The position numbers and the translations under genes were made by a program. Source: a phage. Taken from it: DNA of 51,150 nt. Positions 6,165 through 51,132 of the stretch are shown piece by piece; position 1 is the first letter of the stretch; every line of letters begins with the position of its first letter. Location of the stretch: sequence record PX930853.1. One strand, 5' to 3'. The notes under the pieces were generated by a model. That model did not search any database. It was not told where the DNA came from and worked only from the letters and a program-made list of their open reading frames with translations.

Positions 6165-6335
6165 ACATACACATGAATGATGGCACATACAGATACACAG
6201 AAAGAAAAATCACCACAAACAACCAAAACCACAAGAAACACAGATAACAAGAAAAAACAAATATACATACATAAATAAATAAACTATTGATTTTATATGT
6301 ATATATCTATTTTATTAATTATTTATTGTTCTTAT
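6165..6335. repeat. AC/AT-rich non-coding repeat, copy A (homologous to 35615..35775)
   Basis: Shared blocks AGATACACA, A(C)CA(A)GATAACAA, ATACATA(C/T)ATAAATAAATAA in same order and orientation in both copies. Confidence 0.6.
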
Positions 6336-6404
6336 GTTGGCTAAAATTTGTGCTAAATTTACGCCGTCTTAATTCCGATAACACCGGAAAACAAAAAATA
6401 ACAA

Positions 6405-35414: not shown

Positions 35415-35614
35415 TTCTGCCTCCTGGTTGTTAGGTGTGGGCATTATCAATAATGCTATTTAATGTGTCAACTGTTTTTTCTTGTTCCAGCGTGTTTTAT
35501 CAATTTTATATGGTGGCACAATAACAATATGGGCGTTATTTTTCCTTATAAATCAATGTTATCATTGCTTGTTATCGAAGTTTTCTCGCGGAAAGTGCCA
35601 TATAGATATATATG

Positions 35615-35775
35615 CCCCTACATACCCATACACACATATAGATACACAAAAACTATATACCCCCACCAAATACCACAATAACCAAGATAACAAAAGAGAA
35701 TATATAGATACATATAAATAAATAATCCTTATTTTTCAATGTATTATATAGGTATTGTTTGTTATTTTTTGTTAT
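35615..35775. repeat. AC/AT-rich non-coding repeat, copy B (homologous to 6165..6335)
   Basis: Same ordered sequence blocks as copy A; both copies lie in divergent intergenic regions. Confidence 0.6.
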
Positions 35776-35889
35776 CGTATTTTGCGGAAGGTCAACAAAA
35801 GAACAGGTGGGAACGGAACATAACAACCACTGACAGCCAGGCGGAAAAGTGAGGCAAGAGGGGAAGGTTTCACTATCTCCCCTGCAATC

Positions 35890-35985
35890 AATGATTAAAC
35901 GTGATTACTTTCTCATCAAATTTGCAAATGCAATCATCATTTTGACGTGATTTGATTACGAATGATTACTTTTGATTATTTCTAT
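35890..35985. promoter_or_regulatory. phased GATTA(C) repeats and 10-bp palindrome ATTTGCAAAT (candidate operator/origin-like element)
   Basis: Five GATTA(C) units at ~10-11 bp spacing in two clusters; perfect palindrome near 35920. Confidence 0.3.
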
Positions 35986-36010
35986 CACAGTCCTGGCGCT
36001 AACCGTCAAA

Positions 36011-36029
36011 TGGCACTTTTTGTTAAAAC
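36011..36029 (+). promoter_or_regulatory. conserved intergenic box (TGGCAC variant) ~58 bp upstream of first rightward early gene
   Basis: TGGCACTTTTTGTTAAAAC. Confidence 0.4.
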
Positions 36030-36087
36030 TCAGGCCGTCTGATCGGGTACATTGCACACATCAAAACGAACCGCTCAGGAGATAGCA

Positions 36088-36360
36088 ATGAACATCAGCA
36101 AAACCACTTTCAACTTCGCTAAGCGTCACGGTCTGGATCTGACTGTTGAAGATTTTGGCGATGTTCTGCAACTCTGCATTTGTGAAGCAGATAACGATTG
36201 CGAGTGGCTTTGCTCTTATCGTATCAACTACGATTGCTTGACCTGGCACGGCAATATCTATCTGCCGCAAGAAGTGAAAGAAGAATTGCCAGCGACTATC
36301 AACAACGAGGTTTTCTTGCGTCAGGTGCTGAAATTTATCAGTGAGGAGATCAAGAAGTAA
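36088..36360 (+). CDS. hypothetical early protein (90 aa)
   Basis: AGGAG RBS then ATG 36088 (track ORF starts at upstream TTG). Confidence 0.5.
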   Translation: MNISKTTFNFAKRHGLDLTVEDFGDVLQLCICEADNDCEWLCSYRINYDCLTWHGNIYLPQEVKEELPATINNEVFLRQVLKFISEEIKK

Positions 36361-36626
36361 TGGCGGTGATTACCGAAAATGATTTGGATCTGGCGGAGGC
36401 ATTTTGCAGGGCCGCCAGGGCTAACCTGGATGTGGCTACTAAATTTCTTCCGGCGCGACCACTCTTTTCGTGTGCGCCCGTGAATAAACCGACTCGCGTA
36501 ATGATCGTGATTGAAGGTGATGGCCTGTACGCTGAAAAGACGTTCCACATCAGCAACATTAAGGGCCGTGCTGATTTTATCAATGATGTTTGCTTATTGC
36601 AGGAGAAGAAAAAATGTTGGATGTGA
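36360..36626 (+). CDS. hypothetical early protein, paralog pair member 1
   Basis: C-terminal GRADFINDVCLLQEKKK similar to GAQSNFINEVCDLYGRI of next gene. Confidence 0.45.
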   Translation: MAVITENDLDLAEAFCRAARANLDVATKFLPARPLFSCAPVNKPTRVMIVIEGDGLYAEKTFHISNIKGRADFINDVCLLQEKKKCWM

Positions 36627-36823
36627 TCAACAAAGCCCGTGAGATGGGTATGGATGTTTCAATCAGTGATGCGCAACGCTATAACCGCTCAATGCCTGAA
36701 AACATGGTTGTAGTCATCGTGCATAATCATAAGTTTGAATGCCGCGCAATTCTTGAGCGTGACAACAAAGGGGCGCAAAGCAATTTTATCAACGAAGTCT
36801 GTGATCTGTATGGGCGTATCTGA
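36614..36823 (+). CDS. hypothetical early protein, paralog pair member 2
   Basis: GGAGAAG RBS before ATG 36614. Confidence 0.45.
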   Translation: MLDVINKAREMGMDVSISDAQRYNRSMPENMVVVIVHNHKFECRAILERDNKGAQSNFINEVCDLYGRI

Positions 36824-36824
36824 A

Positions 36825-37037
36825 ATGTTCAAGAAATTGTTATGGCTGTACCGCTCCAGGCGCAACAAGGGATATTGCAGGGGCACGGAAAGGAATCTTG
36901 ACCGCGCTTATAAATACTGCCTGTTATTGCTCGCCAGGATGCCGGAAAACAGGAAGGAATATATTGCACTGCGGGAAATAACAATGCGGATATATAGTTA
37001 CCGCAATAAACTATACGTCTTTAAATCTTTACGATAA
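36825..37037 (+). CDS. hypothetical basic protein (start uncertain)
   Basis: ORF track 36735..37037 trimmed to first ATG after upstream stop; weak RBS. Confidence 0.3.
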   Translation: MFKKLLWLYRSRRNKGYCRGTERNLDRAYKYCLLLLARMPENRKEYIALREITMRIYSYRNKLYVFKSLR

Positions 37038-37049
37038 GGAGTAATAACC

Positions 37050-37313
37050 ATGAAAATTAATGCACCTATTCCAGTTAAGCGCAAAGCACGTTTGCTAAAC
37101 AACGGATGTTACGCCATGCGGCCCGCATTTAAGGATCGCACATTTCCGGTTATCGTTAACGTGTCTCATGTAAGCCGTAGCGGAAACCTGGTATTCGTTA
37201 AAGGTGAAGATCTGACGGCGCTTGGATTCTATGGCGGTGTTCACGGCGAACCGCTCGGATTCTGGCTTGTGGATCCGCTAACTGGAGAGCGTGAAATCGA
37301 ATTCCTGGACTAA
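37050..37313 (+). CDS. hypothetical early protein (87 aa)
   Basis: AAGGAG RBS. Confidence 0.5.
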   Translation: MKINAPIPVKRKARLLNNGCYAMRPAFKDRTFPVIVNVSHVSRSGNLVFVKGEDLTALGFYGGVHGEPLGFWLVDPLTGEREIEFLD

Positions 37314-37333
37314 ATAGCACTTTTTGTTAAAAA
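37313..37333 (+). promoter_or_regulatory. conserved intergenic box
   Basis: AATAGCACTTTTTGTTAAAAC overlapping upstream TAA stop; ~55 bp before ATG 37389. Confidence 0.4.
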
Positions 37334-37388
37334 CGATGTGCGCCTGAATGGTATATTACACCCATCGACAACAAGCGAGGATTTAAAG

Positions 37389-37586
37389 ATGGAAAATCAG
37401 GTTGATGTTAAAGTTGTTAAGCGCGACAAGTCTCACGAAAAAGGTTTGTTTAAGAAAGGCGCTGAAATCACCATTGACCTTGATGATATGGAGGCGTACC
37501 ACTCAGGGCTAACTTGGAACGTGCGCAAATGTGAAAACGGCCTGTTCAAGTTAAATGGCTTTGAAACATACATGGAGATCATTTAA
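37389..37586 (+). CDS. hypothetical early protein (65 aa)
   Basis: GAGGA RBS then ATG 37389 (track ORF begins at upstream GTG). Confidence 0.5.
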   Translation: MENQVDVKVVKRDKSHEKGLFKKGAEITIDLDDMEAYHSGLTWNVRKCENGLFKLNGFETYMEII

Positions 37587-37840
37587 TGGCATACGAAAAG
37601 AATGATTTCAATAGCGCAAGAGAAAAAATCAAGGCGGCGCGAATTAAACAGCGCGCCTTTAGATTCTGGCTTGACTATCGCGATCTAAGAAAAGAGATGG
37701 ATACGCTTATTAAGAACGGTAGCGCATTCTGCTCTAATAGAACGGTTTGGCGAAATATGAATCGCAGTACGGCCAGGGTAAAATTCGTGTATTTGGCGGC
37801 GCTGTTGATGCTTATGTATTTAGCGCAACAAATGCTGTAA
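37586..37840 (+). CDS. hypothetical early protein (84 aa), hydrophobic C-terminus
   Basis: ORF track; TAATG stop-start overlap. Confidence 0.45.
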   Translation: MAYEKNDFNSAREKIKAARIKQRAFRFWLDYRDLRKEMDTLIKNGSAFCSNRTVWRNMNRSTARVKFVYLAALLMLMYLAQQML

Positions 37841-37865
37841 GTTTTAACGTAACTGGGATCGCATA

Positions 37866-38078
37866 ATGGCAAAGCAATTAAAACTTAAATGCGTAGAAAC
37901 TTATAACTCAATTTGGAAATTTACGCGCGGAAAAGAATATCCACTAATGGGAAATCTCAAAGAAGATCCTCATGTAATTTCAGATAATGGTCTTCACCTT
38001 TATTTAATGGAATACAACGATGGGTATATTGGCGCTGGTGTTCCAGGTCATAAATTTAAGCTGAAAAATAAGAAATGA
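37866..38078 (+). CDS. hypothetical early protein (70 aa)
   Basis: ORF track. Confidence 0.45.
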   Translation: MAKQLKLKCVETYNSIWKFTRGKEYPLMGNLKEDPHVISDNGLHLYLMEYNDGYIGAGVPGHKFKLKNKK

Positions 38079-38186
38079 GGCTATTTATTTTCAAAAACGC
38101 TTGGATGGTGGCGGTTGCAAATGACCATTACGGCGGCGACGGAAAAAGAGCGCCACGTCATTCATATTTCAATTGAGGATATTTAA

Positions 38187-38414
38187 ATGAAAGCAAAAGT
38201 TTTAAACATTATGGCAACTATTGACGCTCATCACCGCGTGGCTGTAAAACTTGATAAGTCATGCGGAATTAGCCAAATCACTATCACAGAGGGCAAAGGC
38301 GGCTATCTTATTGGTATCCATCCAGGCGGTAAGGTGCGCAAATACAATAAAGATCAGGTAAAAGAATTACTGGAAGAAAACGCTTTCTATATTCAAAGTT
38401 GGCGCGCTCTTTAA
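38187..38414 (+). CDS. hypothetical early protein (75 aa)
   Basis: GAGGA RBS. Confidence 0.5.
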   Translation: MKAKVLNIMATIDAHHRVAVKLDKSCGISQITITEGKGGYLIGIHPGGKVRKYNKDQVKELLEENAFYIQSWRAL

Positions 38415-38421
38415 TTAATCT

Positions 38422-38447
38422 GGCGGCGTTTTGCCGCCTTTTAAATG
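38422..38447 (+). terminator. putative rho-independent terminator
   Basis: GGCGGCG-TTTT-GCCGCC stem followed by TTTTAAA. Confidence 0.5.
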
Positions 38448-38456
38448 AGGTGAAAA

Positions 38457-38573
38457 ATGATAGATAAAGCTATTGATTTCTTTTTTTATTCGATTATTGG
38501 CGCGGTTGGATTTTTGGTTACTGCTGCTGGCCTGGCTATTATCTTGGCTGTTATTAAGGGAGTTATGCGATGA
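38457..38573 (+). CDS. small membrane peptide (38 aa), not in ORF track
   Basis: GAGGTGAAAA RBS; MIDKAIDFFFYSIIGAVGFLVTAAGLAIILAVIKGVMR; ATGA overlap with next gene. Confidence 0.3.
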   Translation: MIDKAIDFFFYSIIGAVGFLVTAAGLAIILAVIKGVMR

Positions 38574-38794
38574 GTCAGGACGGTTTTTTTGAGCGCCTTC
38601 AAATGGCAGAAGATGCCGGACTAAATAAAGAGGCGGCGCTTGAAGTGGCATATAAAATTAAGACTCTTGATGAGGCTTTAGGTGATATGGATATGGATCT
38701 TGAATCAAGCGCAATATTTGCAGATCCAAATATGATTGTTAATGATTGTGGATGCGATTTCGATCCTAGTTGTCCGCGCTGTTTTCCGTTTTGA
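38570..38794 (+). CDS. hypothetical acidic protein with C-terminal Cys cluster
   Basis: ORF track; CGCDFDPSCPRC motif. Confidence 0.45.
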   Translation: MSQDGFFERLQMAEDAGLNKEAALEVAYKIKTLDEALGDMDMDLESSAIFADPNMIVNDCGCDFDPSCPRCFPF

Positions 38795-38802
38795 GGTAAT
38801 GA

Positions 38803-39330
38803 ATGAATTGGCACGATTACTTTACATACAATCCAGAAACTGGAAAGCTGTTCTGGAAAGAAAGAAAAGATATTCACCCATCAAGAGTTAAACAATGGAA
38901 TGCTTGCAATGCTGGTAATGAGGTTGGCTCTTTTGGTAGTGGTGGCAGATATTTAGAAACTGCACTTACTGTAAACGGAAAACGTTATAACCTGAAAGTT
39001 CATAGAATATGCTATGAAATGCACTATGGGCCTATACCGGAAGGAAAGGAGGTTGATCACGTAAATCACATCACGACTGATAACAGAGCAATAAACTTTG
39101 AGTTAAAAGATCACAAAGGAAATATGCGAAACACATCAAAGCAGAAAAACAATACAAGTGGCATACCAGGTGTGCATAAAAATAAACATGGCAAATGGGT
39201 TGTAAGGGTTGGAGGCGGAAAGCGAGGAAGTAGGATTTATATAGGTTGTTTTTCCAGTTTTGGAGATGCTGTTGCCGCAAAACGTAAAGCCGAGAATGAA
39301 TTGGGGTATCATAAAAATCATGGGAAATAA
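38803..39330 (+). CDS. HNH homing endonuclease with AP2-like DNA-binding domain
   Basis: YNPETGKLFW...VDHVNHITTDNRAINFEL HNH signature; C-terminal GIPGVHKNKHGKWVVRV AP2-like segment. Confidence 0.65.
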   Translation: MNWHDYFTYNPETGKLFWKERKDIHPSRVKQWNACNAGNEVGSFGSGGRYLETALTVNGKRYNLKVHRICYEMHYGPIPEGKEVDHVNHITTDNRAINFELKDHKGNMRNTSKQKNNTSGIPGVHKNKHGKWVVRVGGGKRGSRIYIGCFSSFGDAVAAKRKAENELGYHKNHGK

Positions 39331-40006
39331 AGTTGCTTACTCAATGTTTGATGGATCTGGAATCATGCTGCTTGAATATGCGAAGGCTGGCTATCAATGC
39401 TATTGCTTTAACGCTGATGAAGGCAATCACGGCGAATATTTCATCAAGATGAAACATGAAAATCTGCATTATGTGAATATGTGGATTGATGAAAATTTCA
39501 TTGAAAGAATCAGTAAGATTGGTATTCCAAAACCAGATATTGTATTTGGATTTCCAGACTGCACCATGTTTGCCCAATCAGGAATCAAGCACGTGCGAAG
39601 CGATGATGATATTCAGGTTGCGCTCAAAAATGCAATCATGGTTGAAACTGTCGGGAATCATTTCGGTGTCCCCTGGATGGCTGAGAATCCTGTAGGCCGA
39701 CTATCAACGCTATGGCGAAAGCCTGATTTTTATTTCAATCCTCGCGATTTTGGTAACTACCTGGACGAATCCGATGGATCTTTTCACCCCAAGATGCCGC
39801 TAAAGGATGGCTACACAAAAAGGACTGCTATCTGGTGCGGCAACGGATTTACAGAACCCGAACGCAAGCCGTTATCCAATGATGATGGCGTAATGTTCTT
39901 TTGGGGTTGGAAGTTTTTAGGCGGTAAGTCTGCCAGAACAAAGCAACTACGCTCCCTCACTCCGCGCGGCTTTGCTCGCGCCGTCTTTGAGTCAAACTCA
40001 AAATAG
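39320..40006 (+). CDS. putative SAM-dependent DNA methyltransferase (C5-cytosine-like motifs, atypical)
   Basis: FDGSG (motif I-like), FGFPDC (PC-like motif IV with inserted Asp), AENPVG (ENV-like); start overlaps 3' end of HNH gene. Confidence 0.4.
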   Translation: MGNKVAYSMFDGSGIMLLEYAKAGYQCYCFNADEGNHGEYFIKMKHENLHYVNMWIDENFIERISKIGIPKPDIVFGFPDCTMFAQSGIKHVRSDDDIQVALKNAIMVETVGNHFGVPWMAENPVGRLSTLWRKPDFYFNPRDFGNYLDESDGSFHPKMPLKDGYTKRTAIWCGNGFTEPERKPLSNDDGVMFFWGWKFLGGKSARTKQLRSLTPRGFARAVFESNSK

Positions 40007-40022
40007 CACTTTTTGTTAAAAG
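40002..40022 (+). promoter_or_regulatory. conserved intergenic box
   Basis: AATAGCACTTTTTGTTAAAAG then CCAGGT-GTAAAAA-ACCTGG dyad then CATAAT; ~50 bp before ATG 40076. Confidence 0.4.
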
Positions 40023-40075
40023 CCAGGTGTAAAAACCTGGCATAATCACATCGAACAAACAAAGGAGATCTGATC

Positions 40076-40462
40076 ATGAATGTTATCTGTAATGAAACCA
40101 ACGTATTGATGAAAGGCCGTTTTAAAACTGTTTATCAGAAGATTGCAGGAAGTGATGATGTGATCGAGGTGGAAGAGTTCCAGGTTAAGACGCTTGTTAA
40201 GGGTGGCCGCTGGCTTCCAGCAAACCGAGATGATTACCGCGCCATTAACACAAAAACCGTTCTTTGCACGTTTGTAGATCATAACATGCCGTGCAAAAAG
40301 CACTTTAAGCAGGGCAAGCGATACCAGATCGAGAAAGGGCGACCGCTTGGAAGCGTTGCGGGTTATGTTTTTGATGAGTGCGGCGACCGCTGGAACCTGT
40401 ACCGTGAAGAGGTCGGATTCTCTGCTGGCGGCTGTTATCTGTTTGAGGGCAAATATCTGTGA
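40076..40462 (+). CDS. hypothetical early protein (128 aa)
   Basis: AAAGGAG RBS. Confidence 0.5.
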   Translation: MNVICNETNVLMKGRFKTVYQKIAGSDDVIEVEEFQVKTLVKGGRWLPANRDDYRAINTKTVLCTFVDHNMPCKKHFKQGKRYQIEKGRPLGSVAGYVFDECGDRWNLYREEVGFSAGGCYLFEGKYL

Positions 40463-40680
40463 TAAACAGTGAAAACCGTTACAAAGTAACGCATTCTACC
40501 ACAAAGACTTTCAAGCCTGGCGATATAGTCAGGCCCATCAAAAAAACGGCGGTAGGTTGGCTGATTGGTTTTTCATATCATAAGGCGCTTTACTTTACGT
40601 TTAAGGATGGGATTACAGGAGAATGCTACAGCGACCGCCAGCCTGATCGACTTCTGGTTGCAATAGAGCGGATCAAATAG
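40459..40680 (+). CDS. hypothetical early protein (73 aa)
   Basis: ORF track; overlapping stop-start. Confidence 0.45.
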   Translation: MINSENRYKVTHSTTKTFKPGDIVRPIKKTAVGWLIGFSYHKALYFTFKDGITGECYSDRQPDRLLVAIERIK

Positions 40681-40696
40681 CACTTTTTGACAAAAC
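40676..40696 (+). promoter_or_regulatory. conserved intergenic box (TTGACA variant)
   Basis: AATAGCACTTTTTGACAAAAC then GGGCCGT...ACGGCCC dyad containing TAAAAT. Confidence 0.4.
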
Positions 40697-40748
40697 GGGG
40701 TAGTATTGGGCCGTTAAAATTTACGGCCCACAAAGGAGAAGCTAACGA

Positions 40749-42329
40749 ATGTTTTCATTAGAAACGAACAAATTAACTCCACAGCAAATAATCGCTATGG
40801 CTGAAAGCCAGAACCTTTCACCAGTTCGCGTATCAATTCAGGCTAACGGCTATCGCCAGTCGTCCAGCTTTTGGGGCGACGTGAAGGATGTAAATAGCGG
40901 TCACGATCGCTACCCCGTAATTTCTCTTGGTAATGATATTGATGTTGTCGGAAAGTTATCACGCAGTATTGCGCGATCCGTTCAATTCCCTGAATCATCG
41001 GCTTACATGCACTTTATCGGCTGCATTTCTGCCGCCATGCTTGGACGCTTTACGGTTGACTATCACGGGACCGATCAGCCGACTGCGATTTACGTCGTTA
41101 CAAGCCAGCCGCCGTCAACTGGTAAATCTGCGATCAACAGTATGGCTATTGCTCCGATGATTGCGGAAGTTGAGAAGATCAACGAGCAACGCCGCAAGGA
41201 AAGAAAGAAAATACAGGCAAAGTTGGCAGGTCTTGCAAAGGAGATGAAAAGCGAAAGATCAGGCGCTGATATGGAATCTCTATACCAGGAAAAAGAGGAT
41301 CTGGAAGAGAAGCTGGAAAAGATGTGTGATATAACTTTCCCTGTTTCAGATACAACTCCAGAAGGCTTGGCAAAAATCAACAACAAGCAAGGTAACTTTG
41401 CCGTAATATCTGACGAAGCAACAAGTATTAACAGTCTGTTAGGCTTGACCTATGCCAATAGCGAAAGGAAGACTAACAGTGAGCTAGTGCTTAAGGCGTG
41501 GGATAATGGTCACGTATCAATTGCCCGTGCTAATGCTGACAATAACATGAGTTTTCGCGCACTTGGATGTATGAGCGTTATAGCCCAGGATGAAACGATA
41601 AGCGGAATCATGGACGCTGGATCGCGCGGTATCGGTGTGAGTGAGCGCTTTTTGTTGGTCCGTGAGGAATCATTCTTAGGCCGTCGCTCATTCATTGATG
41701 AAAATGGTGATTCTACCTATGAGGCGGTGGATCCTGAATTGAAGGCCCAATATTATCAATTGGTGCATAACATCATGAGCGAATCAAATATATCGCTGAA
41801 AATAAGCCGTTCAGCTATGCGAGTGCTCAACATTGCTCGCCAGGATATGGAACCGCATCTTGCAGACGGCGGAAAGTATTCTCATACAATGTTACGCGGT
41901 GCGCTGGGTAAAATGGATAAACAGGTGATCAGGCTTGCTTCCGTCCTGCATGTTATCCGCAACTGGTTTAATCCTGCTGGATACCCGCAGAAGTCGAAAG
42001 AGATCGACGTGGAAACAATGCAAGAGGCGCTGATCATGTTTCAGGAATTGAGCAAAACATACATTAGCGCCGCCAATGCTTCTGGTTATGCTGGTGATGA
42101 TGCTGAAATGGGCAAATTGATTGAATTGATCACTAGACACGGCAAGGCTAATAAAGGGATTCTGAATATTCGCGCCCTGTACGAATCAGCGAGAAAGGTA
42201 AAACCTTTCGTTGGTCAGGCTGGCGTAATGAAGAGGATAGAAGGGCACTTGCTGCCAATGCTGGAAGAAAGAAATTATGTTTGTGTGATTAATGGTGTTA
42301 TTTTTGTCAATCCAATACTGCTGGGATGA
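40749..42329 (+). CDS. large early protein with P-loop NTPase-like motifs, function unknown
   Basis: 526 aa; Walker A-like PPSTGKSA, Walker B-like FAVISDEAT, central charged coiled coil; AAAGGAG RBS. Confidence 0.55.
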   Translation: MFSLETNKLTPQQIIAMAESQNLSPVRVSIQANGYRQSSSFWGDVKDVNSGHDRYPVISLGNDIDVVGKLSRSIARSVQFPESSAYMHFIGCISAAMLGRFTVDYHGTDQPTAIYVVTSQPPSTGKSAINSMAIAPMIAEVEKINEQRRKERKKIQAKLAGLAKEMKSERSGADMESLYQEKEDLEEKLEKMCDITFPVSDTTPEGLAKINNKQGNFAVISDEATSINSLLGLTYANSERKTNSELVLKAWDNGHVSIARANADNNMSFRALGCMSVIAQDETISGIMDAGSRGIGVSERFLLVREESFLGRRSFIDENGDSTYEAVDPELKAQYYQLVHNIMSESNISLKISRSAMRVLNIARQDMEPHLADGGKYSHTMLRGALGKMDKQVIRLASVLHVIRNWFNPAGYPQKSKEIDVETMQEALIMFQELSKTYISAANASGYAGDDAEMGKLIELITRHGKANKGILNIRALYESARKVKPFVGQAGVMKRIEGHLLPMLEERNYVCVINGVIFVNPILLG

Positions 42330-42721
42330 TTATGTTTTTGCTTGATCTGTATAAATGGTGTGAGTCATACGACTGGTTTAACAGGCAGCACATAGCCAAA
42401 TTTATCTATCAGCATAGAGAATGTGAGCGGCTCGCACGGGCCGCCGGACTTACGCCGCGAATGTTCGCCAGCCTTGCATCTAAGGAATTTTGCGCAAGAA
42501 TGATGACGGCTGGCTATATAGATGGGGTCTGCGGTAAATACTGGTCCAAAGGATCGTCAAAGCGGCCTTTCGGATTCGAATTGTATAGCCTGGATGGTAT
42601 GCGCAACGACTGGATCAGGGATATGGCGAGAATAGGGGAGATGGGCGATGATGAATTGTTCCAGGCAAAATCTAATAGACAAGATCTTGAAGCACTGCGC
42701 CGTAAATTCAATATCACATGA
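42326..42721 (+). CDS. hypothetical protein translationally coupled to P-loop protein
   Basis: ATGA start/stop overlap with 40749..42329. Confidence 0.5.
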   Translation: MIMFLLDLYKWCESYDWFNRQHIAKFIYQHRECERLARAAGLTPRMFASLASKEFCARMMTAGYIDGVCGKYWSKGSSKRPFGFELYSLDGMRNDWIRDMARIGEMGDDELFQAKSNRQDLEALRRKFNIT

Positions 42722-42837
42722 GGATTTTATTCATGCTTTACTTACGCTACTTTATTCAGATATGCGCGCTTTTAGCACCACTGAACATGTTTTATGCAAT
42801 GATGATGGTGTATTACTGGTTACGGTAAAGCGTATGG

Positions 42838-42858
42838 AATAGCATTTTTTGTTAAAAC
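42838..42858 (+). promoter_or_regulatory. conserved intergenic box
   Basis: AATAGCATTTTTTGTTAAAAC then CCCGGC...GTCGGG dyad then TATATT. Confidence 0.4.
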
Positions 42859-42918
42859 GCCCGGCATAGTGTCGGGTATATTTGTTTCATCGAAACGAAA
42901 CAACCAAAAGGTAAAATT

Positions 42919-43143
42919 ATGTCCAGCAAGTTTTTAGTAGTTCGCGTATATAATCATGACAACGGATCTTCTGCTGAAATCCCGACAATTTATGACAGGG
43001 ATTTTGGATGGAGTGAGCAATCGGCTGTTGAAAATGAGCGCAAGATTGCAGAACTGTACGGCGACACTTGCAGCATTGAAGTAAGGCAGTACGACGAATC
43101 GAACAAGCCAACAAACGAAACTCATATGTGGCCCGACGCATAA
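42919..43143 (+). CDS. hypothetical early protein (74 aa), last gene of rightward early cluster
   Basis: ORF track; followed by strong bidirectional terminator. Confidence 0.5.
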   Translation: MSSKFLVVRVYNHDNGSSAEIPTIYDRDFGWSEQSAVENERKIAELYGDTCSIEVRQYDESNKPTNETHMWPDA

Positions 43144-43177
43144 AAATAAAGGAGGCATTAAGCCTCCTTTTTCTTTT
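43142..43177. terminator. bidirectional rho-independent terminator between early-right and lysis clusters
   Basis: GGAGGC-ATTAA-GCCTCC stem with A-run upstream and T-run downstream. Confidence 0.6.
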
Positions 43178-43553
43178 CCCTCCAGTAAAGACAAATCAGC
43201 ACAATGAACACAACCACGCATATGATTATTGGATCGTACCATCTGCCGTTATTACCCTGCACGACCTGAATTTTGTCTGCCTTGATGGTATTGGCCTGAA
43301 TGGTTGATGTTGTGAAATCCTTCTTGCTGGACGTGTCCACCTTGTCAACCGCAGATTCCTTTATTGTGGTTTCCTGTTTTGTGCTGGCGTCCTGCTTTGC
43401 TGTAATGCCAACTGTCTGCTTCACGTTCTCCGCGCCAGCCTGTGCTGTTATTTCCGGCTTACTGCCGATTAATCCGGTCAGTGGCGTAACGCTTGAACAT
43501 CCAGACAAGATCACCGCCATTGCGATTGGTGTAAATAAAAATTTCTTCATCAT
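43158..43553 (-). CDS. unimolecular spanin (u-spanin): N-terminal lipoprotein signal plus C-terminal transmembrane helix
   Basis: [19 protein letters not shown] lipobox and C-terminal [16 protein letters not shown] followed by basic tail; directly after endolysin. Confidence 0.7.
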
Positions 43554-47173: not shown

Positions 47174-47587
47174 AAGCATGTATTCAATAGCCAACTTAAA
47201 CTGATTGAATCCGTAGGCTACCGCAGCGAATCCTCCTAAGCTGCGAACGCGACGCAAAAAAGCCTTTTGTTCATCGCTGACTGGTGATGCTTTCCCCTTG
47301 CCTGATTTATTCACTCGTTTGATCTCAATCGCTGCAAAGGGGTATTTTCCGTTTAAACCAATCAGAATGATGAAATCGCTTACTCCCTTAACCAAGCCGG
47401 ACTGCTGATCAATCATCGCCGTTGCTTTAGACTTCTCATTCTCGTTTACCGTATGCCACGCCAGCAAATAAGGATGAGCATAAGTCAACCACTGAAAACT
47501 ATCTATCTGGTGATTAACTTCCCTTCTCGTGTCGGTTGGATCCCTTTCGTAAAACTCAAGATAATCGCCTTTATCAGTTATAGCCAT
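47168..47587 (-). CDS. VRR-NUC domain nuclease (PD-(D/E)XK), putative
   Basis: GVSDFIILIG...AAIEIKR motif pattern; start overlaps helicase stop. Confidence 0.55.
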   Translation of the reverse strand: MAITDKGDYLEFYERDPTDTRREVNHQIDSFQWLTYAHPYLLAWHTVNENEKSKATAMIDQQSGLVKGVSDFIILIGLNGKYPFAAIEIKRVNKSGKGKASPVSDEQKAFLRRVRSLGGFAAVAYGFNQFKLAIEYMLK

Positions 47588-49584
47588 TAAACAAACTCCC
47601 GTTTTGCAATGTTATCCTCACCTTTGCCGTTTTTGCGATGCGTTACGCGTACAGGAGGCATGATGTGATGAGCGTATGACATTATTTTACGCGCATTTCT
47701 ATAGCTAGCCACCATACCAGCAATCTTGCGATCCGGTATGTGCTGCAATGCTATTTTTCTCCATATCGTCCGGCAAATGTTGCTTTCTGACTCAGGGAAA
47801 AATCTTTCGTATGCCTTGAACGTGTCGCCGTTGGCCTCAAGCTCATAGCAAAAAACAATTCCTTTCTGGTTTTTCGTCATATCAACGCGGAAAGATTTAA
47901 CGTCGCACCAATCGTTTTTGGTGTAGTGCTTGCCGCTTAACTTCTCGTTAGGATCGACAAGAGAAATATCGCAACAACGGCATACTCTCGCAACTACGTC
48001 GTTTTTTGTTCCGCAACCGCGCTTGATTATCTTTTTCGTTCTCGGATCTACCTGGTCCTCGCAAATTCTGTAAGTCCAAAAATGCTCGCATCTCTTCCCG
48101 TTATCGTCTACGTGCATACATCGGCGAGCGTAAAAGCTGTTTAGCGTTCCACATATCGGACAAGTCTTAGGCTCTTTCCCGTTTGTAAATCTCTTTTGGA
48201 ATTGCGCTTGCTCAAGGATTGGATCGAAATACAAATCCCCTAACTCATCCATAGTACCGGCAAAATCCAATACAAGATGGTCTTTTTTCTTGAATCCCTG
48301 CTCAATGTGCCATTGCTTAAGCAGTCGCATACCGCGCCCCAAAAGCTGGATAAGTAATGTTAGAGATCCTATCTTTCTCAGTATTACCGAAGTATCCCAA
48401 AACGGAACGTTAACGCCAGTGGTAAGCGCCTGTACCTGAAAGATGTATTTTACTTTTCCCTCGTATGCCTCCCTCAGCCACTCTTTACGCTGATTGTCTC
48501 CAGTCTTGCCAGTTATGATCCTGTATTCAACGCCTGGCGGAAGTGCGGCGGCGGCCTCCTTGCAGTGTCTTTCCCCTGCGCATGTAACTAAAACTCCGTT
48601 CCTGTCTTTGCATATCTCATGGACTTTAGCCATGATTTTCTGTGTCATTGTTGCGTCTTGATGGATCTTTTCTTCCATCTTGCGCAATGTTTTAGCGTCA
48701 AAGTCTGAAACGCCATCCTCGCTACTGGCTTCGAACTCTGAAAGGTCATACCCCAGGTCGCCTACGTCGCCGAAATTTGTTGACACTACCGAACCAAATT
48801 TGATTAAGTAGTTTGTGTCTATGTTAGTCACCTGCTCACGCCAGAATCCCTTTTTGTTCTTATCTTCAACCAGTATTGGAACCACGCCGCGAAACTCAGA
48901 TCCAGTCATACCGAATATTCGCAATTCGTGCCCGTATGCCTCGCGACACCTGCGCATCATTTCCATGATTATTACGGTGTACTGTGTGCGTCCTGTTCCG
49001 AACATTGGATCGCCATTGGAATCAAATTGCTGTTCTTCTCCAATCAGTACAGGCAAATCCTTCTTAGTGGTCATCTGCTGGTAAGATTCATTATTTTCTA
49101 TCGCGTCGGCGAGATCCTCCCAATCCACCTGGTGACATTCATCAATACCGATAACGTGCGGAACATAATCACCTAACGACTTAAACAATCCGTTTACCAC
49201 AGTGCCCTCAGAACCGACTACGATCGGAAAGTATGCGCTTTTTGTTTTCAGTCCGGCGCAATAGATTGAGTTTGGCACGCCAAGATTGCTGATCTCTTCC
49301 GAATCCTGATCAACAATTTCAGCCTGGCGAGCAAGGACCATCATTTTCAATCCCATTTTGCGGCATTGCGCAGCAACCATCGCAAACATCAAAGTTTTGC
49401 CAGCCGACACAGAAGCCTTAACGAAGAAAGGATGCTCATAGTTTTTCATGCGCTTTGCGATCTCGGCATACGCAACGCACTGATAAGGATAAGGCACTAT
49501 ATTGCCAACCGTGAATCGCTCTTGGATGATTTTTATTACTGCCTCGCCTAACGCTGATATTTGTTTTTCGATATTTGGAATCAT
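47587..49584 (-). CDS. superfamily 2 ATP-dependent helicase with C-terminal Cys-rich zinc-finger region
   Basis: Walker A SAGKT, DExH box IGIDECHQV, multiple CxxC pairs near C-terminus. Confidence 0.75.
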   Translation of the reverse strand: MIPNIEKQISALGEAVIKIIQERFTVGNIVPYPYQCVAYAEIAKRMKNYEHPFFVKASVSAGKTLMFAMVAAQCRKMGLKMMVLARQAEIVDQDSEEISNLGVPNSIYCAGLKTKSAYFPIVVGSEGTVVNGLFKSLGDYVPHVIGIDECHQVDWEDLADAIENNESYQQMTTKKDLPVLIGEEQQFDSNGDPMFGTGRTQYTVIIMEMMRRCREAYGHELRIFGMTGSEFRGVVPILVEDKNKKGFWREQVTNIDTNYLIKFGSVVSTNFGDVGDLGYDLSEFEASSEDGVSDFDAKTLRKMEEKIHQDATMTQKIMAKVHEICKDRNGVLVTCAGERHCKEAAAALPPGVEYRIITGKTGDNQRKEWLREAYEGKVKYIFQVQALTTGVNVPFWDTSVILRKIGSLTLLIQLLGRGMRLLKQWHIEQGFKKKDHLVLDFAGTMDELGDLYFDPILEQAQFQKRFTNGKEPKTCPICGTLNSFYARRCMHVDDNGKRCEHFWTYRICEDQVDPRTKKIIKRGCGTKNDVVARVCRCCDISLVDPNEKLSGKHYTKNDWCDVKSFRVDMTKNQKGIVFCYELEANGDTFKAYERFFPESESNICRTIWRKIALQHIPDRKIAGMVASYRNARKIMSYAHHIMPPVRVTHRKNGKGEDNIAKREFV

Positions 49585-50155: not shown

Positions 50156-50190
50156 GCCCAGCGAAATGATAATATTTGCTGGGCTTTTTT
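50156..50190 (+). terminator. rho-independent terminator
   Basis: GCCCAGC...GCTGGGC stem followed by T6. Confidence 0.7.
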
Positions 50191-50202
50191 ATTGAGGTTG
50201 CT

Positions 50203-51132
50203 ATGAATACTGAAAACTTTATGACCTATCAGAAAGAAGATGTTTTGCCATATATGAAGGGGTTATGGCGTGAAGCACTACAAAGCATTTGCGGACTGCA
50301 TAGCGATGTTTTCAACAAAAAGCATCAGCCTTGCCCACACTGCGGCGGTAAGGATCGTTTTAGATGGACTGATAAGCTAAATGAAGAGGGCGACGGCGGC
50401 GCGATCTGCAACGTATGCGGTAACGACACGGGGATCGGTTGGTTAATGAAATTAACTGGCGAACCTTACAGCGAGGCCATCAACATTTTGGGCCGCTTCC
50501 TCGGCAAAGTGCCACAAGATTACAGGATCAGAGCAAACAAGCGCGCTTCACGTTCTTCTGGCTACTCGTTCGGGAAACAGGCAAGTCATGAATGCTGCGA
50601 AAAAGTGATGGCAAAAACATTAAAATTCGATCGCACACCCTTAAGCGTTTATGAGGGGATATATCCGCCGGAAGATTGTTATTATGATTGCGGCGTCAAG
50701 GATGGTCGATACATTCACGCGCTACCTTGTCACCTGGTGCATGATGACGGGCTGGATGATGAAATGTGTAACGTGCTTTTCATTGATGAGGATGGAAAGG
50801 ATTGGTTTTTAGCTCGCGACTACACGCGCGGGTCTGTTGTTAAAACAGGTAGCACAGATAAGACGATCTATTTGTGCCTTGATTGGGTTGATTCTCAGCA
50901 TGTTCATTTATCAACTGGTCAAGAGGTGTGGGCCTGCTTTACTCCTTCAAATCTTGAAATGGTTGCGCATAGATATAAAGGAGAAAGAAGAATGCGCGTA
51001 GTCTGCCGGAAAGATGATCGTGATGTGATAATCGCGGCAGAGGAAAGAGGTCTTGACATAATGATGCCTGTTAACGATAATTTTAAACAGGGCGTAGAAA
51101 GAAAACTCTACAAGCCCGAATCACTGCTATAA
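50203..51132 (+). CDS. DNA primase (zinc-finger type), putative
   Basis: CPHCGG...CNVCG zinc-binding motif near N-terminus, acidic DxD-containing core; GAGG RBS before ATG 50203; 3' end repeated at 1..37. Confidence 0.6.
   Translation: MNTENFMTYQKEDVLPYMKGLWREALQSICGLHSDVFNKKHQPCPHCGGKDRFRWTDKLNEEGDGGAICNVCGNDTGIGWLMKLTGEPYSEAINILGRFLGKVPQDYRIRANKRASRSSGYSFGKQASHECCEKVMAKTLKFDRTPLSVYEGIYPPEDCYYDCGVKDGRYIHALPCHLVHDDGLDDEMCNVLFIDEDGKDWFLARDYTRGSVVKTGSTDKTIYLCLDWVDSQHVHLSTGQEVWACFTPSNLEMVAHRYKGERRMRVVCRKDDRDVIIAAEERGLDIMMPVNDNFKQGVERKLYKPESLL

What the first reader, a model, noticed from the sequence alone, without database searches (positions are those of the whole stretch)
40749..42721. 526-aa P-loop-like early protein translationally coupled to a 131-aa partner
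The largest protein of the rightward early region has a Walker A-like PPSTGKSA, a Walker B-like FAVISDEAT and a central highly charged coiled coil. The next gene starts in an ATGA overlap with its stop, implying a functional pair. The pair has its own box upstream and is not part of the recognisable replication module, so it could be a helicase-loader-like replication factor, a host-takeover NTPase, or an anti-defense system.
Basis: inference. Interest (0 to 1): 0.55.

Follow-up and report, generated by a model that had tools for sequence, protein, structure and literature searches.

The report
T1-like phage helicase and winged-helix partner
The 526-aa protein is the MCM-like (DUF3987) DNA helicase that T1-like phages already carry under the annotation "DNA helicase", so it is ordinary; the small protein coupled to it is an uncharacterised winged-helix protein found only in this phage family, always just downstream of that helicase.

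Summary
ORFs 40749-42329 (526 aa) and 42326-42721 (131 aa) exist, share an ATGA junction, and sit behind a conserved promoter-like box. The window is a Warwickvirus (Drexlerviridae, T1-like) genome, about 99% identical to phages tiwna and SECphi27.

DUF3987 was predicted in 2016 to be an SF6 replicative helicase of phages, and one member was shown in 2025 to be an ATP-dependent 5'-3' helicase. The anti-defence and host-takeover readings have no support.

The 131-aa partner is a basic winged-helix domain followed by an acidic SDDELF motif. It has no Pfam or PDB relatives and is confined to Drexlerviridae (835 phage records). It lay directly downstream of the helicase in all eight contexts I mapped. 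It is probably a DNA-binding helicase accessory, but that is inference.

Interest is low to moderate.

The parts
40677..40720 (+). Promoter-like box of the phage-wide class upstream of the helicase: ATAGCAC-TTTTTGACAAAAC, an 18-nt spacer, then TAAAAT. A hairpin at 40707-40730 overlaps the -10-like hexamer.
   Evidence: Sequence read. There are 13 copies of the box in the window against 3.8 expected. In all 13 copies a -10-like hexamer lies exactly 18 nt after the box. The hairpin is I8. The same 21-nt repeat was described in phage TLS (PMC11447400).
40733..40739 (+). Shine-Dalgarno sequence AAGGAGA, 9 nt before the helicase ATG
   Evidence: Read directly
40749..42329 (+). DUF3987 / MCM-like AAA+ (SF6) DNA helicase, 526 aa, 58 kDa
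41106..41129 (+). Walker A / P-loop, residues 120-127 (QPPSTGKS), between strand beta1 (115-119) and helix 126-168
   Evidence: Q120, P121, P122, S123, G125, K126 and S127 are invariant in 23 homologs down to 35% identity. Secondary structure.
41124..41321 (+). Long charged helical hairpin (residues 126-191) that extends the Walker A helix.
   Evidence: AF2 helices at 126-168 and 172-191. The Pfam DUF3987 match runs 81-430 against model positions 3-350, nearly one-to-one, so the hairpin belongs to the family architecture.
41397..41417 (+). Walker B, residues 217-223 (FAVISDE), at the end of strand 217-221
   Evidence: S221 and E223 are invariant. D222 is Ala in 5 of 23 homologs. Strand assignment.
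41511..41558 (+). Pre-sensor-1 beta-hairpin (residues 255-270) carrying invariant R260
   Evidence: AF2 strands at 255-258 and 267-270, just before the sensor-1 strand at 273-279. R260 is invariant. This hairpin is typical of the MCM-type AAA+ clade (established knowledge).
41565..41648 (+). Sensor-1 strand (VIAQDE, residues 277-282) and the SERF arginine finger (R300) at the start of strand 301-305
   Evidence: I278, A279, D281, E282, E299 and R300 are invariant. Topology. Its placement matches the MCM SRF arginine-finger motif (established knowledge; inference for this protein).
42096..42326 (+). C-terminal winged-helix domain of the helicase (residues ~450-526, pI 9.25)
42326..42721 (+). 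Partner protein, 131 aa (129 aa if it starts at ATG 42332): a Drexlerviridae-specific winged-helix protein, PHROG 2794
42326..42550 (+). Winged-helix domain of the partner (residues 1-75; residues 1-80 have pI 9.4)
42641..42661 (+). Acidic-aromatic motif MGDDELF (residues 106-112; family consensus S/T-D-D-E-L-F)
   Evidence: D108 and F112 are invariant and L111 nearly so across the whole family. The motif is at or within 3 residues of the C-terminus in the shortest members.
42846..42882 (+). Next copy of the promoter-like box (TTTTTGTTAAAAC, 18-nt spacer, TATATT) with a spacer hairpin. It marks the end of the helicase-partner transcription unit.
   Evidence: A terminator-like hairpin at 42859-42877 was flagged.

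Best explanation
The pair is the helicase operon of a T1-like (Drexlerviridae, Warwickvirus) phage. The 526-aa protein is a DUF3987-family, MCM-like AAA+ (superfamily 6) ring helicase. A small N-terminal helical region precedes an AAA+ core with Walker A, Walker B, a pre-sensor-1 hairpin, sensor 1 and a trans-acting SERF arginine finger. A long helical hairpin extends from the Walker A helix, and a basic C-terminal winged helix closes the protein.

The phage encodes no DNA polymerase and no DnaB-type helicase. It does encode a separate T7-gp4-type zinc-ribbon primase, an SSB and recombination proteins. The DUF3987 protein is therefore most likely the replicative helicase. It would open and unwind phage DNA for the phage primase and the host Pol III (inferred).

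The 131-aa protein is co-transcribed from the same promoter-like box and probably translationally coupled. It has a basic winged-helix domain plus an acidic SDDELF peptide. I infer that it is a helicase accessory factor. It would bind DNA, perhaps at an origin or a fork, through the winged helix, and contact the helicase or another replisome protein through the acidic-aromatic motif. That would make it a loader, adaptor or specificity factor.

Shown here: family membership, fold, motif conservation and synteny. Inferred: replicative role, ring assembly, polarity and everything about the partner's activity.
For: Identity of the genome:
- 99.4% DNA identity to Escherichia phage tiwna (Warwickvirus), where the two genes are annotated 'DNA helicase' and 'YdbL'.

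Helicase:
- Pfam DUF3987, E 1.6e-43 and 149.7 bits against a 27-bit cutoff. PHROG 2373 'DNA helicase', E 8e-244.
- Invariant G125-K126-S127, E223, R260, D281-E282, E299-R300 and R383/K388 in 23 homologs at 35-87% identity.

Literature:
- A PriCT-DUF3987 protein (AgaPH) is an oligomeric 5'-3' helicase that uses ATP or dATP and depends on Walker A and B (PMC11724360).

Genome context:
- Primase with Zn_Ribbon_Prim at 50176-51132, SF2 helicase, VRR-NUC, Dam, Erf and a DUF3799 exonuclease.
- No polymerase or DnaB-type helicase is annotated in the whole tiwna genome. The TLS paper notes that T1 and TLS lack a DNA polymerase gene.
- In more distant phages the orthologous helicase lies inside the replication and recombination cluster.

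Partner:
- The winged-helix part has pI 9.4 and the C-terminal part pI 4.85. D108 and F112 of the SDDELF motif are invariant.
- It lies directly downstream of the DUF3987 helicase (overlap, or a gap of at most 4 nt; 60 nt in the most divergent case) in all eight contexts mapped here. These cover Warwickvirus, Tunavirus, Webervirus, Rogunavirus and two metagenomic contigs, one carrying a 33%-identical homolog.
- The family is confined to phage genomes of about 45-54 kb: 835 records against 926 for the helicase.
Against: - No biochemical or genetic data exist for this lineage. Helicase activity, oligomeric state and polarity are extrapolated from one distant family member and from fold.
- The Walker B aspartate (D222) is alanine in 5 of 23 homologs, which is unusual for an active AAA+ ATPase, although E223 is invariant.
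- I did not see an MCM-type helix-2 insert in the model, and the MCM N-terminal OB/zinc domain is absent. Mechanistic analogy to MCM is therefore limited to the ATPase core.
- AgaPH unwinds 5'-3', whereas the staphylococcal AAA+ helicases Cch2 and the SaPI Reps unwind 3'-5'. Polarity here is open.
- The phage also encodes an SF2 helicase next to the primase. The TLS authors took that one to be 'the' replication helicase.
- I recall, but could not check, classical work on host dna-gene requirements of T1. A requirement for host DnaB would weaken the replicative-helicase reading.
- For the partner there is no evidence of physical interaction with the helicase, no iterons or candidate binding sites nearby, and no homology to any loader or initiator.
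- More distant phages with DUF3987 helicases lack the partner, so the helicase fold does not intrinsically require it.
Confidence: 0.8

Rival explanations
1. The helicase assignment stands, but the 131-aa winged-helix protein is a transcription regulator, for example of the early/late switch or of the promoter-like boxes. It would merely share an operon with the helicase rather than act on it.
Confidence: 0.2
2. The DUF3987 protein is a DNA translocase or helicase for recombination-dependent replication, replication restart or concatemer processing, not the fork helicase. Fork unwinding would be done by host DnaB or by the phage SF2 helicase.
For: The gene is separated from the primase / SF2-helicase cluster by the lysis cassette. 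The TLS authors assigned replication initiation to the primase and the adjacent SF2 helicase. T1-like phages carry a full recombination set of exonuclease, Erf, SSB and VRR-NUC.
Against: Ring AAA+ helicases of the MCM-like clade in mobile elements (Cch, SaPI Rep, AgaPH) are replicative or initiator helicases. The SF2 helicase is paired with a VRR-NUC nuclease, which fits fork remodelling or repair better (inference). In more distant phages DUF3987 sits adjacent to the primase. DUF3987 was specifically classed as a replicative helicase in a global survey.
Confidence: 0.12
3. The pair is a host-takeover or anti-defence module.
For: The pair is located among small early genes of unknown function. 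The neighbouring 128-aa gene is probably the SECphi27 protein that triggers Mokosh type I, so this region does interact with host defence.
Against: There is confident replication-helicase family membership and fold and no PADLOC hits. Both genes are core to about 830-930 phage genomes rather than patchy accessory genes. Catalytic motifs are strictly conserved.
Confidence: 0.03

Closest known systems
DUF3987 (PF13148) helicases, e.g. AgaPH (PriCT-DUF3987) of a Seonamhaeicola mobile element
   Same: Same Pfam family, well above the gathering score. Conserved Walker A and B motifs and a small C-terminal domain. AgaPH is an oligomeric helicase that uses ATP or dATP and partners with a primase.
   Different: There is no N-terminal PriCT domain here. 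The primase is a separate DnaG/T7-gp4-type protein about 8 kb away rather than an adjacent AEP PrimPol. This lineage has a dedicated winged-helix partner gene. No biochemistry has been done on it.
Archaeal/eukaryotic MCM helicases (SF6 AAA+)
   Different: No Pfam MCM hit. Sequence identity is 11-18%. The MCM N-terminal OB/zinc domain is absent and no helix-2 insert is evident. A long helical hairpin grows from the Walker A helix instead. The one characterised DUF3987 helicase runs 5'-3', opposite to MCM.
Self-loading helicases of staphylococcal elements (SCCmec Cch/Cch2, SaPI Rep/PriRep)
   Different: Different families (DUF927 and others) and 3'-5' polarity. Their origins are iteron arrays near the gene, and no iterons were found near this gene. 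They have no separate small winged-helix partner.
Phage helicase-loader or initiator pairs (lambda O/P, T4 gp41/gp59, DnaB/DnaC)
   Same: The logic is the same: a ring helicase gene tightly linked to a small accessory gene that delivers it to DNA.
   Different: The partner shows no sequence or fold similarity to lambda P, gp59, DnaC/IstB or DnaD. Here the helicase is phage-encoded and AAA+, not DnaB-type.
SSB, T7 gp2.5 and T7 gp4 acidic C-terminal tails ending in Phe
   Same: The partner's conserved acidic stretch ends in an aromatic residue (DDELF) and is C-terminal in the shortest homologs. It resembles the replisome-recruiting tails DDDIPF of SSB and the acidic, Phe-terminated tails of T7 gp2.5 and gp4 (my recollection, used as a lead only).
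   Different: In this window the motif is internal, with 19 residues following it. No OB fold is present. The resemblance is compositional and untested.

Membership tests
DUF3987 (Pfam PF13148) helicase family | Match to the family HMM above the curated gathering score | tested here: met
   149.7 bits against a 27-bit cutoff, E 1.6e-43, residues 81-430 on model positions 3-350 of 364. All 120 listed homologs carry PF13148.
DUF3987 (Pfam PF13148) helicase family | Conserved Walker A (GxxxxGK[ST]) and Walker B (DExx) motifs | tested here: met
   G125-K126-S127 and E223 are invariant in 23 homologs. D222 is replaced by Ala in 5 of 23. Motif definition from PMC11724360.
DUF3987 (Pfam PF13148) helicase family | [quoted passage not shown] | tested here: met
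DUF3987 (Pfam PF13148) helicase family | Association with an AEP or DnaG-type primase, fused or adjacent | tested here: inconclusive
   A Zn_Ribbon_Prim primase is encoded at 50176-51132, but about 7.8 kb away and not adjacent. It is adjacent in the more distant phage VLCpiS13a.
DUF3987 (Pfam PF13148) helicase family | ATP-dependent DNA unwinding by an oligomer | not testable with these tools
   Shown only for AgaPH. It needs protein biochemistry here.
MCM family proper (Pfam PF00493; SF6) | Sequence match to the MCM AAA+ domain model | tested here: not met
   No MCM hit at E <= 0.1 in Pfam, and no PDB sequence hit with a single sequence or a profile. The relationship shows up only by fold and by the published profile-profile comparison.
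MCM family proper (Pfam PF00493; SF6) | Pre-sensor-1 beta-hairpin and trans arginine finger (SRF motif) | tested here: met
   Hairpin at 255-270 with invariant R260, and S298-E299-R300-F301 immediately before strand 301-305.
MCM family proper (Pfam PF00493; SF6) | N-terminal OB-fold/zinc domain and helix-2 insert | tested here: not met
   The N-terminal 100 residues are short helices only. Helix 204-214 before Walker B has no inserted hairpin. This was judged from secondary structure only, because coordinates were not inspected.
YdbL (the name attached to the partner in several GenBank records) | Match to a YdbL/DUF1318-type family model | tested here: not met
   No Pfam family at E <= 0.1 and no NCBIfam family at E <= 1. 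The label traces back to the annotation of phage JK06 and looks like a propagated misnomer.
Known helicase loaders/initiators (DnaC/IstB, lambda P, T4 gp59, DnaD) | Sequence or fold similarity of the partner to any of these | tested here: not met
Winged-helix DNA-binding fold (partner) | Helix-strand-helix-helix-strand-strand topology, with a recognition helix followed by a beta wing | tested here: met

The most novel reading that the evidence does not exclude
The 131-aa protein is the founding member of a new class of accessory factor for bacterial-virus MCM-like helicases. It would be a winged-helix, origin- or fork-binding adaptor whose acidic SDDELF peptide docks onto the DUF3987 ring or onto host Pol III / SSB-interacting proteins. 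That docking would load or couple the helicase. It would give T1-like phages a self-contained helicase-loading system unrelated to DnaC, lambda P or gp59.
Probability: 0.3. Interest if true: 0.5.

Novelty: new member of a known kind. Interest (0 to 1): 0.25.

Why it matters
T1-like phages (Drexlerviridae) are abundant, are notorious laboratory contaminants, and are widely used in defence-system screens. Yet their replication machinery has never been dissected biochemically.

Recognising the DUF3987 protein as the likely replicative helicase corrects a view in the literature. The recent TLS re-annotation names the primase-adjacent SF2 helicase as the one that, with the primase, might initiate replication. 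That clarifies how a polymerase-less phage builds a fork.

The partner is the only open element. If it is a loader or adaptor, it would be the first accessory factor described for the bacterial or phage MCM-like helicase clade.

In practice, the helicase is an ordinary, already annotated gene. The finding deserves only modest priority.

Tried and rejected
- **PDB by sequence.** Single-sequence and profile searches of PDB for both proteins gave nothing meaningful. The only hits were coiled-coil noise (augmin, Mre11).
- **Family libraries.** NCBIfam and PADLOC scans gave no hits.
- **Duplication hypothesis.** I tested whether the partner is a duplicate of the helicase's own C-terminal winged helix. 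hhalign probability was 0.08%, so this is rejected.
- **Small neighbours of distant helicases.** I tested whether the small genes flanking distant DUF3987 helicases are partner homologs. They are not. One is an ASCH-type 'RNA-binding' protein and one is weakly regulator-like.
- **Iterons or origin repeats.** I looked in 40000-43400 and found only short, chance-level repeats plus the promoter box. GATC density in the helicase gene (13 sites) is not remarkable against the genome average of 5.6 per kb.
- **Domain fusions.** I looked for fusions that would reveal the partner's function. An exhaustive phmmer search and a profile search found only standalone proteins of 111-162 aa.
  - The 1989-aa hit P0221 is a false positive caused by a repeated 'KAGYVDGE' unit.
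  - The apparent helicase-partner fusion in Vibrio phage Vc1 (P0112) contains duplicated segments and looks like an assembly or annotation artefact.
- **Literature.** Searches for defence-escape mutations in the Drexlerviridae helicase and for T1 host dna-gene requirements found nothing bearing on these two genes.
Full report
**1. What is in the sequence**

The two ORFs exist exactly as described: 40749..42329 (+, 526 aa) and 42326..42721 (+, 131 aa). The junction reads ...CTG GGA TGA TT ATG..., so an ATG at 42326 overlaps the TGA stop as ATGA.

Most homologs begin at the third codon, MFLLDLY (ATG 42332). Annotated relatives place the partner start 3-4 nt after the helicase stop. The real start may therefore be 42332. 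In either case the genes are separated by at most a few bases.

The 526-aa ORF is the largest in the rightward block at about 35460-43143.

TTTTTGACAAAAC lies at 40684-40696, preceded by ATAGCAC. An 18-nt spacer, TAAAAT, AAGGAGA and the ATG follow it. The box pattern occurs 13 times in the window against 3.8 +/- 2.0 expected, with 0 of 100 shuffles reaching 13. Every copy is co-oriented with the downstream gene. In all 13 copies a -10-like hexamer sits exactly 18 nt after the box. The next copy, at 42846, bounds the unit. The helicase, the partner and perhaps a 64-aa overlapping ORF therefore form one transcription unit.

**2. What genome this is**

The region is 99.4% identical to Escherichia phage tiwna. 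It matches 153 phage records at the DNA level. Tiwna is a Warwickvirus (Drexlerviridae, Tempevirinae), that is, a T1-like siphovirus. SECphi27, another Warwickvirus, encodes the same two proteins at 99.6% and 99.2% identity.

In tiwna the genes are annotated 'DNA helicase' (gp61) and 'YdbL' (gp60). Upstream lie small early genes and a DNA methyltransferase. Downstream, on the opposite strand, lie the lysis cassette and then a phosphoesterase, Dam, VRR-NUC, an SF2 'ATP-dependent helicase', a regulator and a DNA primase. The rest of the genome carries exonuclease VIII, Erf, SSB and the structural genes. It has no DNA polymerase and no DnaB-type helicase.

I confirmed the window's own copies:
- a primase with the T7-gp4-type zinc ribbon (50176-51132);
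- a Cro/YdaS-like regulator;
- an SF2 helicase (47587-49584, minus strand);
- VRR-NUC, Dam, Erf and a DUF3799 exonuclease.

**3. The 526-aa protein**

It matches Pfam DUF3987 at E 1.6e-43, with 149.7 bits against a cutoff of 27. Residues 81-430 align to model positions 3-350. It also matches PHROG 2373 'DNA helicase' at E 8e-244.

A database search returned 188 homologs. All 120 listed carry PF13148, and most come from contigs of about 45-53 kb.

In an alignment of 23 homologs at 35-87% identity, these residues are invariant:
- Q120-P-P-S-x-G125-K126-S127 (Walker A);
- S221 and E223 (Walker B; D222 is Ala in five sequences);
- R260;
- I278-A-x-D281-E282;
- E299-R300;
- R383, G384, G387, K388 and D390.

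The AlphaFold model is confident, with pLDDT 88.3 and pTM 0.85. It places these motifs in a canonical AAA+ order:
- beta1 at 115-119, then the P-loop;
- helix 204-214, then beta3 at 217-221 ending in SDE;
- a beta-hairpin at 255-270 carrying R260;
- beta4 at 273-279 ending in QDE;
- helix 281-292;
- S-E-R300-F immediately before beta5 at 301-305;
- a helical lid;
- a C-terminal winged helix at about 450-526.

Because the Pfam alignment is nearly one-to-one across the hairpin, the hairpin belongs to the family rather than being a lineage-specific insert.

No PDB entry is detectable by sequence. The family therefore appears to have no solved structure.

**4. What is already known about this family**

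- Kazlauskas et al. (2016) identified DUF3987 proteins as divergent SF6 helicases distantly related to MCM. They noted a C-terminal wHTH and frequent fusion or adjacency to AEP or DnaG primases. [quoted passage not shown]
- The same group listed DUF3987 among helicase domains fused to PrimPols (PMC5862659).
- In 2025 a PriCT-DUF3987 protein (AgaPH) was purified. It is oligomeric, binds its PrimPol, unwinds 5'-overhang and forked DNA (5'-3'), uses ATP or dATP, and is inactivated by Walker A or B mutations (PMC11724360).

The large protein is therefore a member of a known, ordinary replication-helicase family.

The family is not classed under Pfam MCM, and the MCM N-terminal domain and helix-2 insert are not seen. 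I therefore describe it as 'works like an MCM-type AAA+ ring helicase' and as 'a member of DUF3987', not as 'an MCM'.

**5. Is it the replicative helicase?**

This step is inference. Four points favour it:
- It is the only ring-type helicase candidate in a genome that has a primase and SSB but no polymerase.
- It is found in 926 phage records, consistent with a core gene.
- In more distant phages the ortholog sits inside the replication and recombination cluster. In one 78-kb contig it is next to an SF2 helicase, a DUF3799 exonuclease, AAA_24 and SSB. In Klebsiella phage VLCpiS13a it is next to the primase, an SF2 helicase and exonuclease VIII.
- Related AAA+ helicases on mobile elements (Cch2, SaPI Reps) are combined initiator-helicases whose C-terminal domain binds the origin.

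Three points count against it, or remain open:
- The TLS re-annotation suggested that the primase and the adjacent SF2 helicase might initiate replication.
- D222 is not universally conserved.
- I could not check classical data on T1's dependence on host dna genes.

**6. The 131-aa partner**

It has no Pfam, NCBIfam, PADLOC or PDB-sequence match. Its only family assignment is PHROG 2794, function unknown. The 'YdbL' label in some records traces to the JK06 annotation. No model supports it.

The winged-helix part is basic (pI 9.4) and the C-terminal part acidic (pI 4.85).

The conserved core ends in an acidic-aromatic motif, [ST]-D-D-E-L-F. D108 and F112 are invariant. In the shortest homologs the motif is the C-terminus itself or lies within three residues of it.

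The family is narrow:
- 21 clusters among 1.8 billion representative proteins, and at least one of them (P0221) is a spurious repeat-driven hit;
- 152 clusters in the profile search, and all 120 listed are standalone proteins of 111-162 aa;
- 835 phage records, and all 40 records listed in the spread sample are 44-54 kb.

In the eight contexts I mapped, the partner always lies immediately downstream of the DUF3987 helicase:

| Context | Lineage | Junction |
|---|---|---|
| This window | Warwickvirus | overlap, or +2 nt |
| tiwna | Warwickvirus | overlap |
| SECphi27 | Warwickvirus | same junction as the window |
| ADB-2 | Tunavirus | gap 4 nt |
| TAH8 | Webervirus | gap 3 nt |
| Rogue1 | Rogunavirus | gap 4 nt |
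| Metagenomic contig L010 | not assigned | overlap 4 nt |
| Metagenomic contig L009, homolog at 33% identity | not assigned | gap 60 nt |

tblastn coordinates in JK06 and in the Klebsiella K50_evo phages also place the two genes within a few nucleotides of each other.

More distant phages with DUF3987 helicases lack it.

Conserved juxtaposition across subfamilies argues for a functional link with the helicase. The architecture, a basic winged helix plus an acidic-aromatic peptide, suggests a DNA-binding adaptor. Such an adaptor could act in origin or fork recognition, helicase loading, or coupling to another replisome protein. There is no direct evidence for any of these. The main rival is a winged-helix transcription regulator that simply shares the operon.

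**7. Verdict**

- *Observation:* confirmed.
- *Interpretation:* partly supported. It is a P-loop replication factor in a conserved pair. It is not unrecognisable, is not a loader, and is not an anti-defence or takeover module.
- *Novelty:* the helicase is a new (uncharacterised) member of a known kind and is already annotated as such. The partner is an uncharacterised family whose role is the only open question.
- *Interest:* 0.25.

**8. Things seen along the way**

- The promoter-like box corresponds to the 21-nt direct repeat aaATAGCACnnnTTGnTAAAA reported in phage TLS, where its function was left open. The fixed 18-nt distance to a -10-like hexamer in all 13 copies here, often with a spacer hairpin, argues that these are promoters of an unusual geometry.
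- The 128-aa ORF two genes upstream (40076-40462) is 99% identical to the only ATG-started 128-aa ORF in the first 50 kb of SECphi27. It is therefore probably the '128-aa protein of unknown function' reported to trigger Mokosh type I.
- An HNH homing-endonuclease gene (38803-39330) is present here and absent at the corresponding place in tiwna.

Noticed in passing
window 17785, 30371(-), 32984(-), 34202(-), 34665(-), 36017, 37321, 40010, 40684, 42846, 46081(-), 47152(-), 49641(-): There are 13 copies of aATAGCAC-TTTTTGTTAAAAC. Each is followed after exactly 18 nt by a -10-like hexamer ([C/T]ATAAT, TATATT, TAAAAT and similar, often preceded by G). The spacer often forms a GC-rich hairpin. Each copy is co-oriented with the downstream gene, and the box's TAG frequently serves as the stop codon of the upstream ORF. 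The box matches the 21-nt direct repeat reported in phage TLS, whose function was left open (stoperator, enhancer or UP element). The fixed distance to a -10 element suggests promoters with a displaced upstream element. The simple sigma-70 scan did not flag them.
   Followed up: partly
window 40076-40462 (+), 128 aa, PHROG 2684: This ORF is 99.2% identical to the only ATG-started 128-aa ORF in the first 50 kb of phage SECphi27, which belongs to the same genus. Stokar-Avihail et al. report that a '128aa protein of unknown function' of SECphi27 triggers Mokosh type I toxicity. This ORF is probably that trigger. The identification rests on length and uniqueness only, because the SECphi27 record is unannotated.
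   Followed up: partly
window 38803-39330 (+), 175 aa: An HNH_3 homing-endonuclease gene (Pfam E 2.9e-14; PHROG 99) sits just upstream of the DNA methyltransferase gene, and its end overlaps the listed TTG-start ORF for that gene (39260-40006). Phage tiwna has no gene at this position, so this is probably a mobile HNH insertion.
   Followed up: partly
window 42648-42842 (+), 64 aa: This ORF overlaps the last 74 nt of the partner gene in another frame and ends in the TAG of the next promoter box. It matches PHROG 9539 (E 1.9e-25) and is 97% conserved in SECphi27, but it is not annotated in tiwna. Whether it is expressed is unknown.
   Followed up: partly
window 42326-42721 and GenBank relatives (tiwna gp60, tonn, atuna, JLBYU phages, Rogue1_0065): The product name 'YdbL' attached to the partner in many records has no support from Pfam or NCBIfam. 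It appears to be propagated from the old annotation of phage JK06.
   Followed up: yes
window ~35650-35775 and ~6200-6350: These are the two most AT-rich 100-nt stretches of the genome, at 82% and 85% A+T. The first lies in the divergent switch region between the leftward genes and the rightward early block. They are candidate DNA-unwinding or origin regions and were not examined further.
   Followed up: no
phage records MG065640, MG065679 and ~19 others ('Campylobacter phage A14b/A13a...'): About 20 records labelled as Campylobacter jejuni phages carry this Drexlerviridae helicase and partner, at 88% and 73% protein identity in the two records listed. Their genome size is T1-like (about 47 kb). 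The host labels look doubtful. T1-like coliphages are classic contaminants.
   Followed up: no
P0112 / UniProt A0A6M5CB08 (Vibrio phage Vc1 'Helicase', 345 aa): This is an apparent in-frame fusion of the helicase C-terminus with the partner's N-terminus (...INPCLMG-LK-MFLLDLY...). The sequence also contains an internally duplicated segment, so it is probably an assembly or annotation artefact rather than a natural fusion.
   Followed up: partly
helicase residue 222 (window 41412-41414) in homologs P0101, P0104, P0115, P0116, P0117: The Walker B aspartate is replaced by alanine (ISAEA instead of ISDEA) in five otherwise well-conserved homologs, while the following glutamate is invariant. This is unusual for an AAA+ ATPase and is unexplained.
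   Followed up: no
partner residues C12, H22, H30, C33 (window 42359-42424): A Cys-x9-His-x7-His-x2-Cys pattern is conserved within the Drexlerviridae set of 23 sequences. The two His are invariant there and the two Cys are at 90% or more. Conservation is looser in the most distant members. This is a possible metal site inside the winged helix.
   Followed up: no
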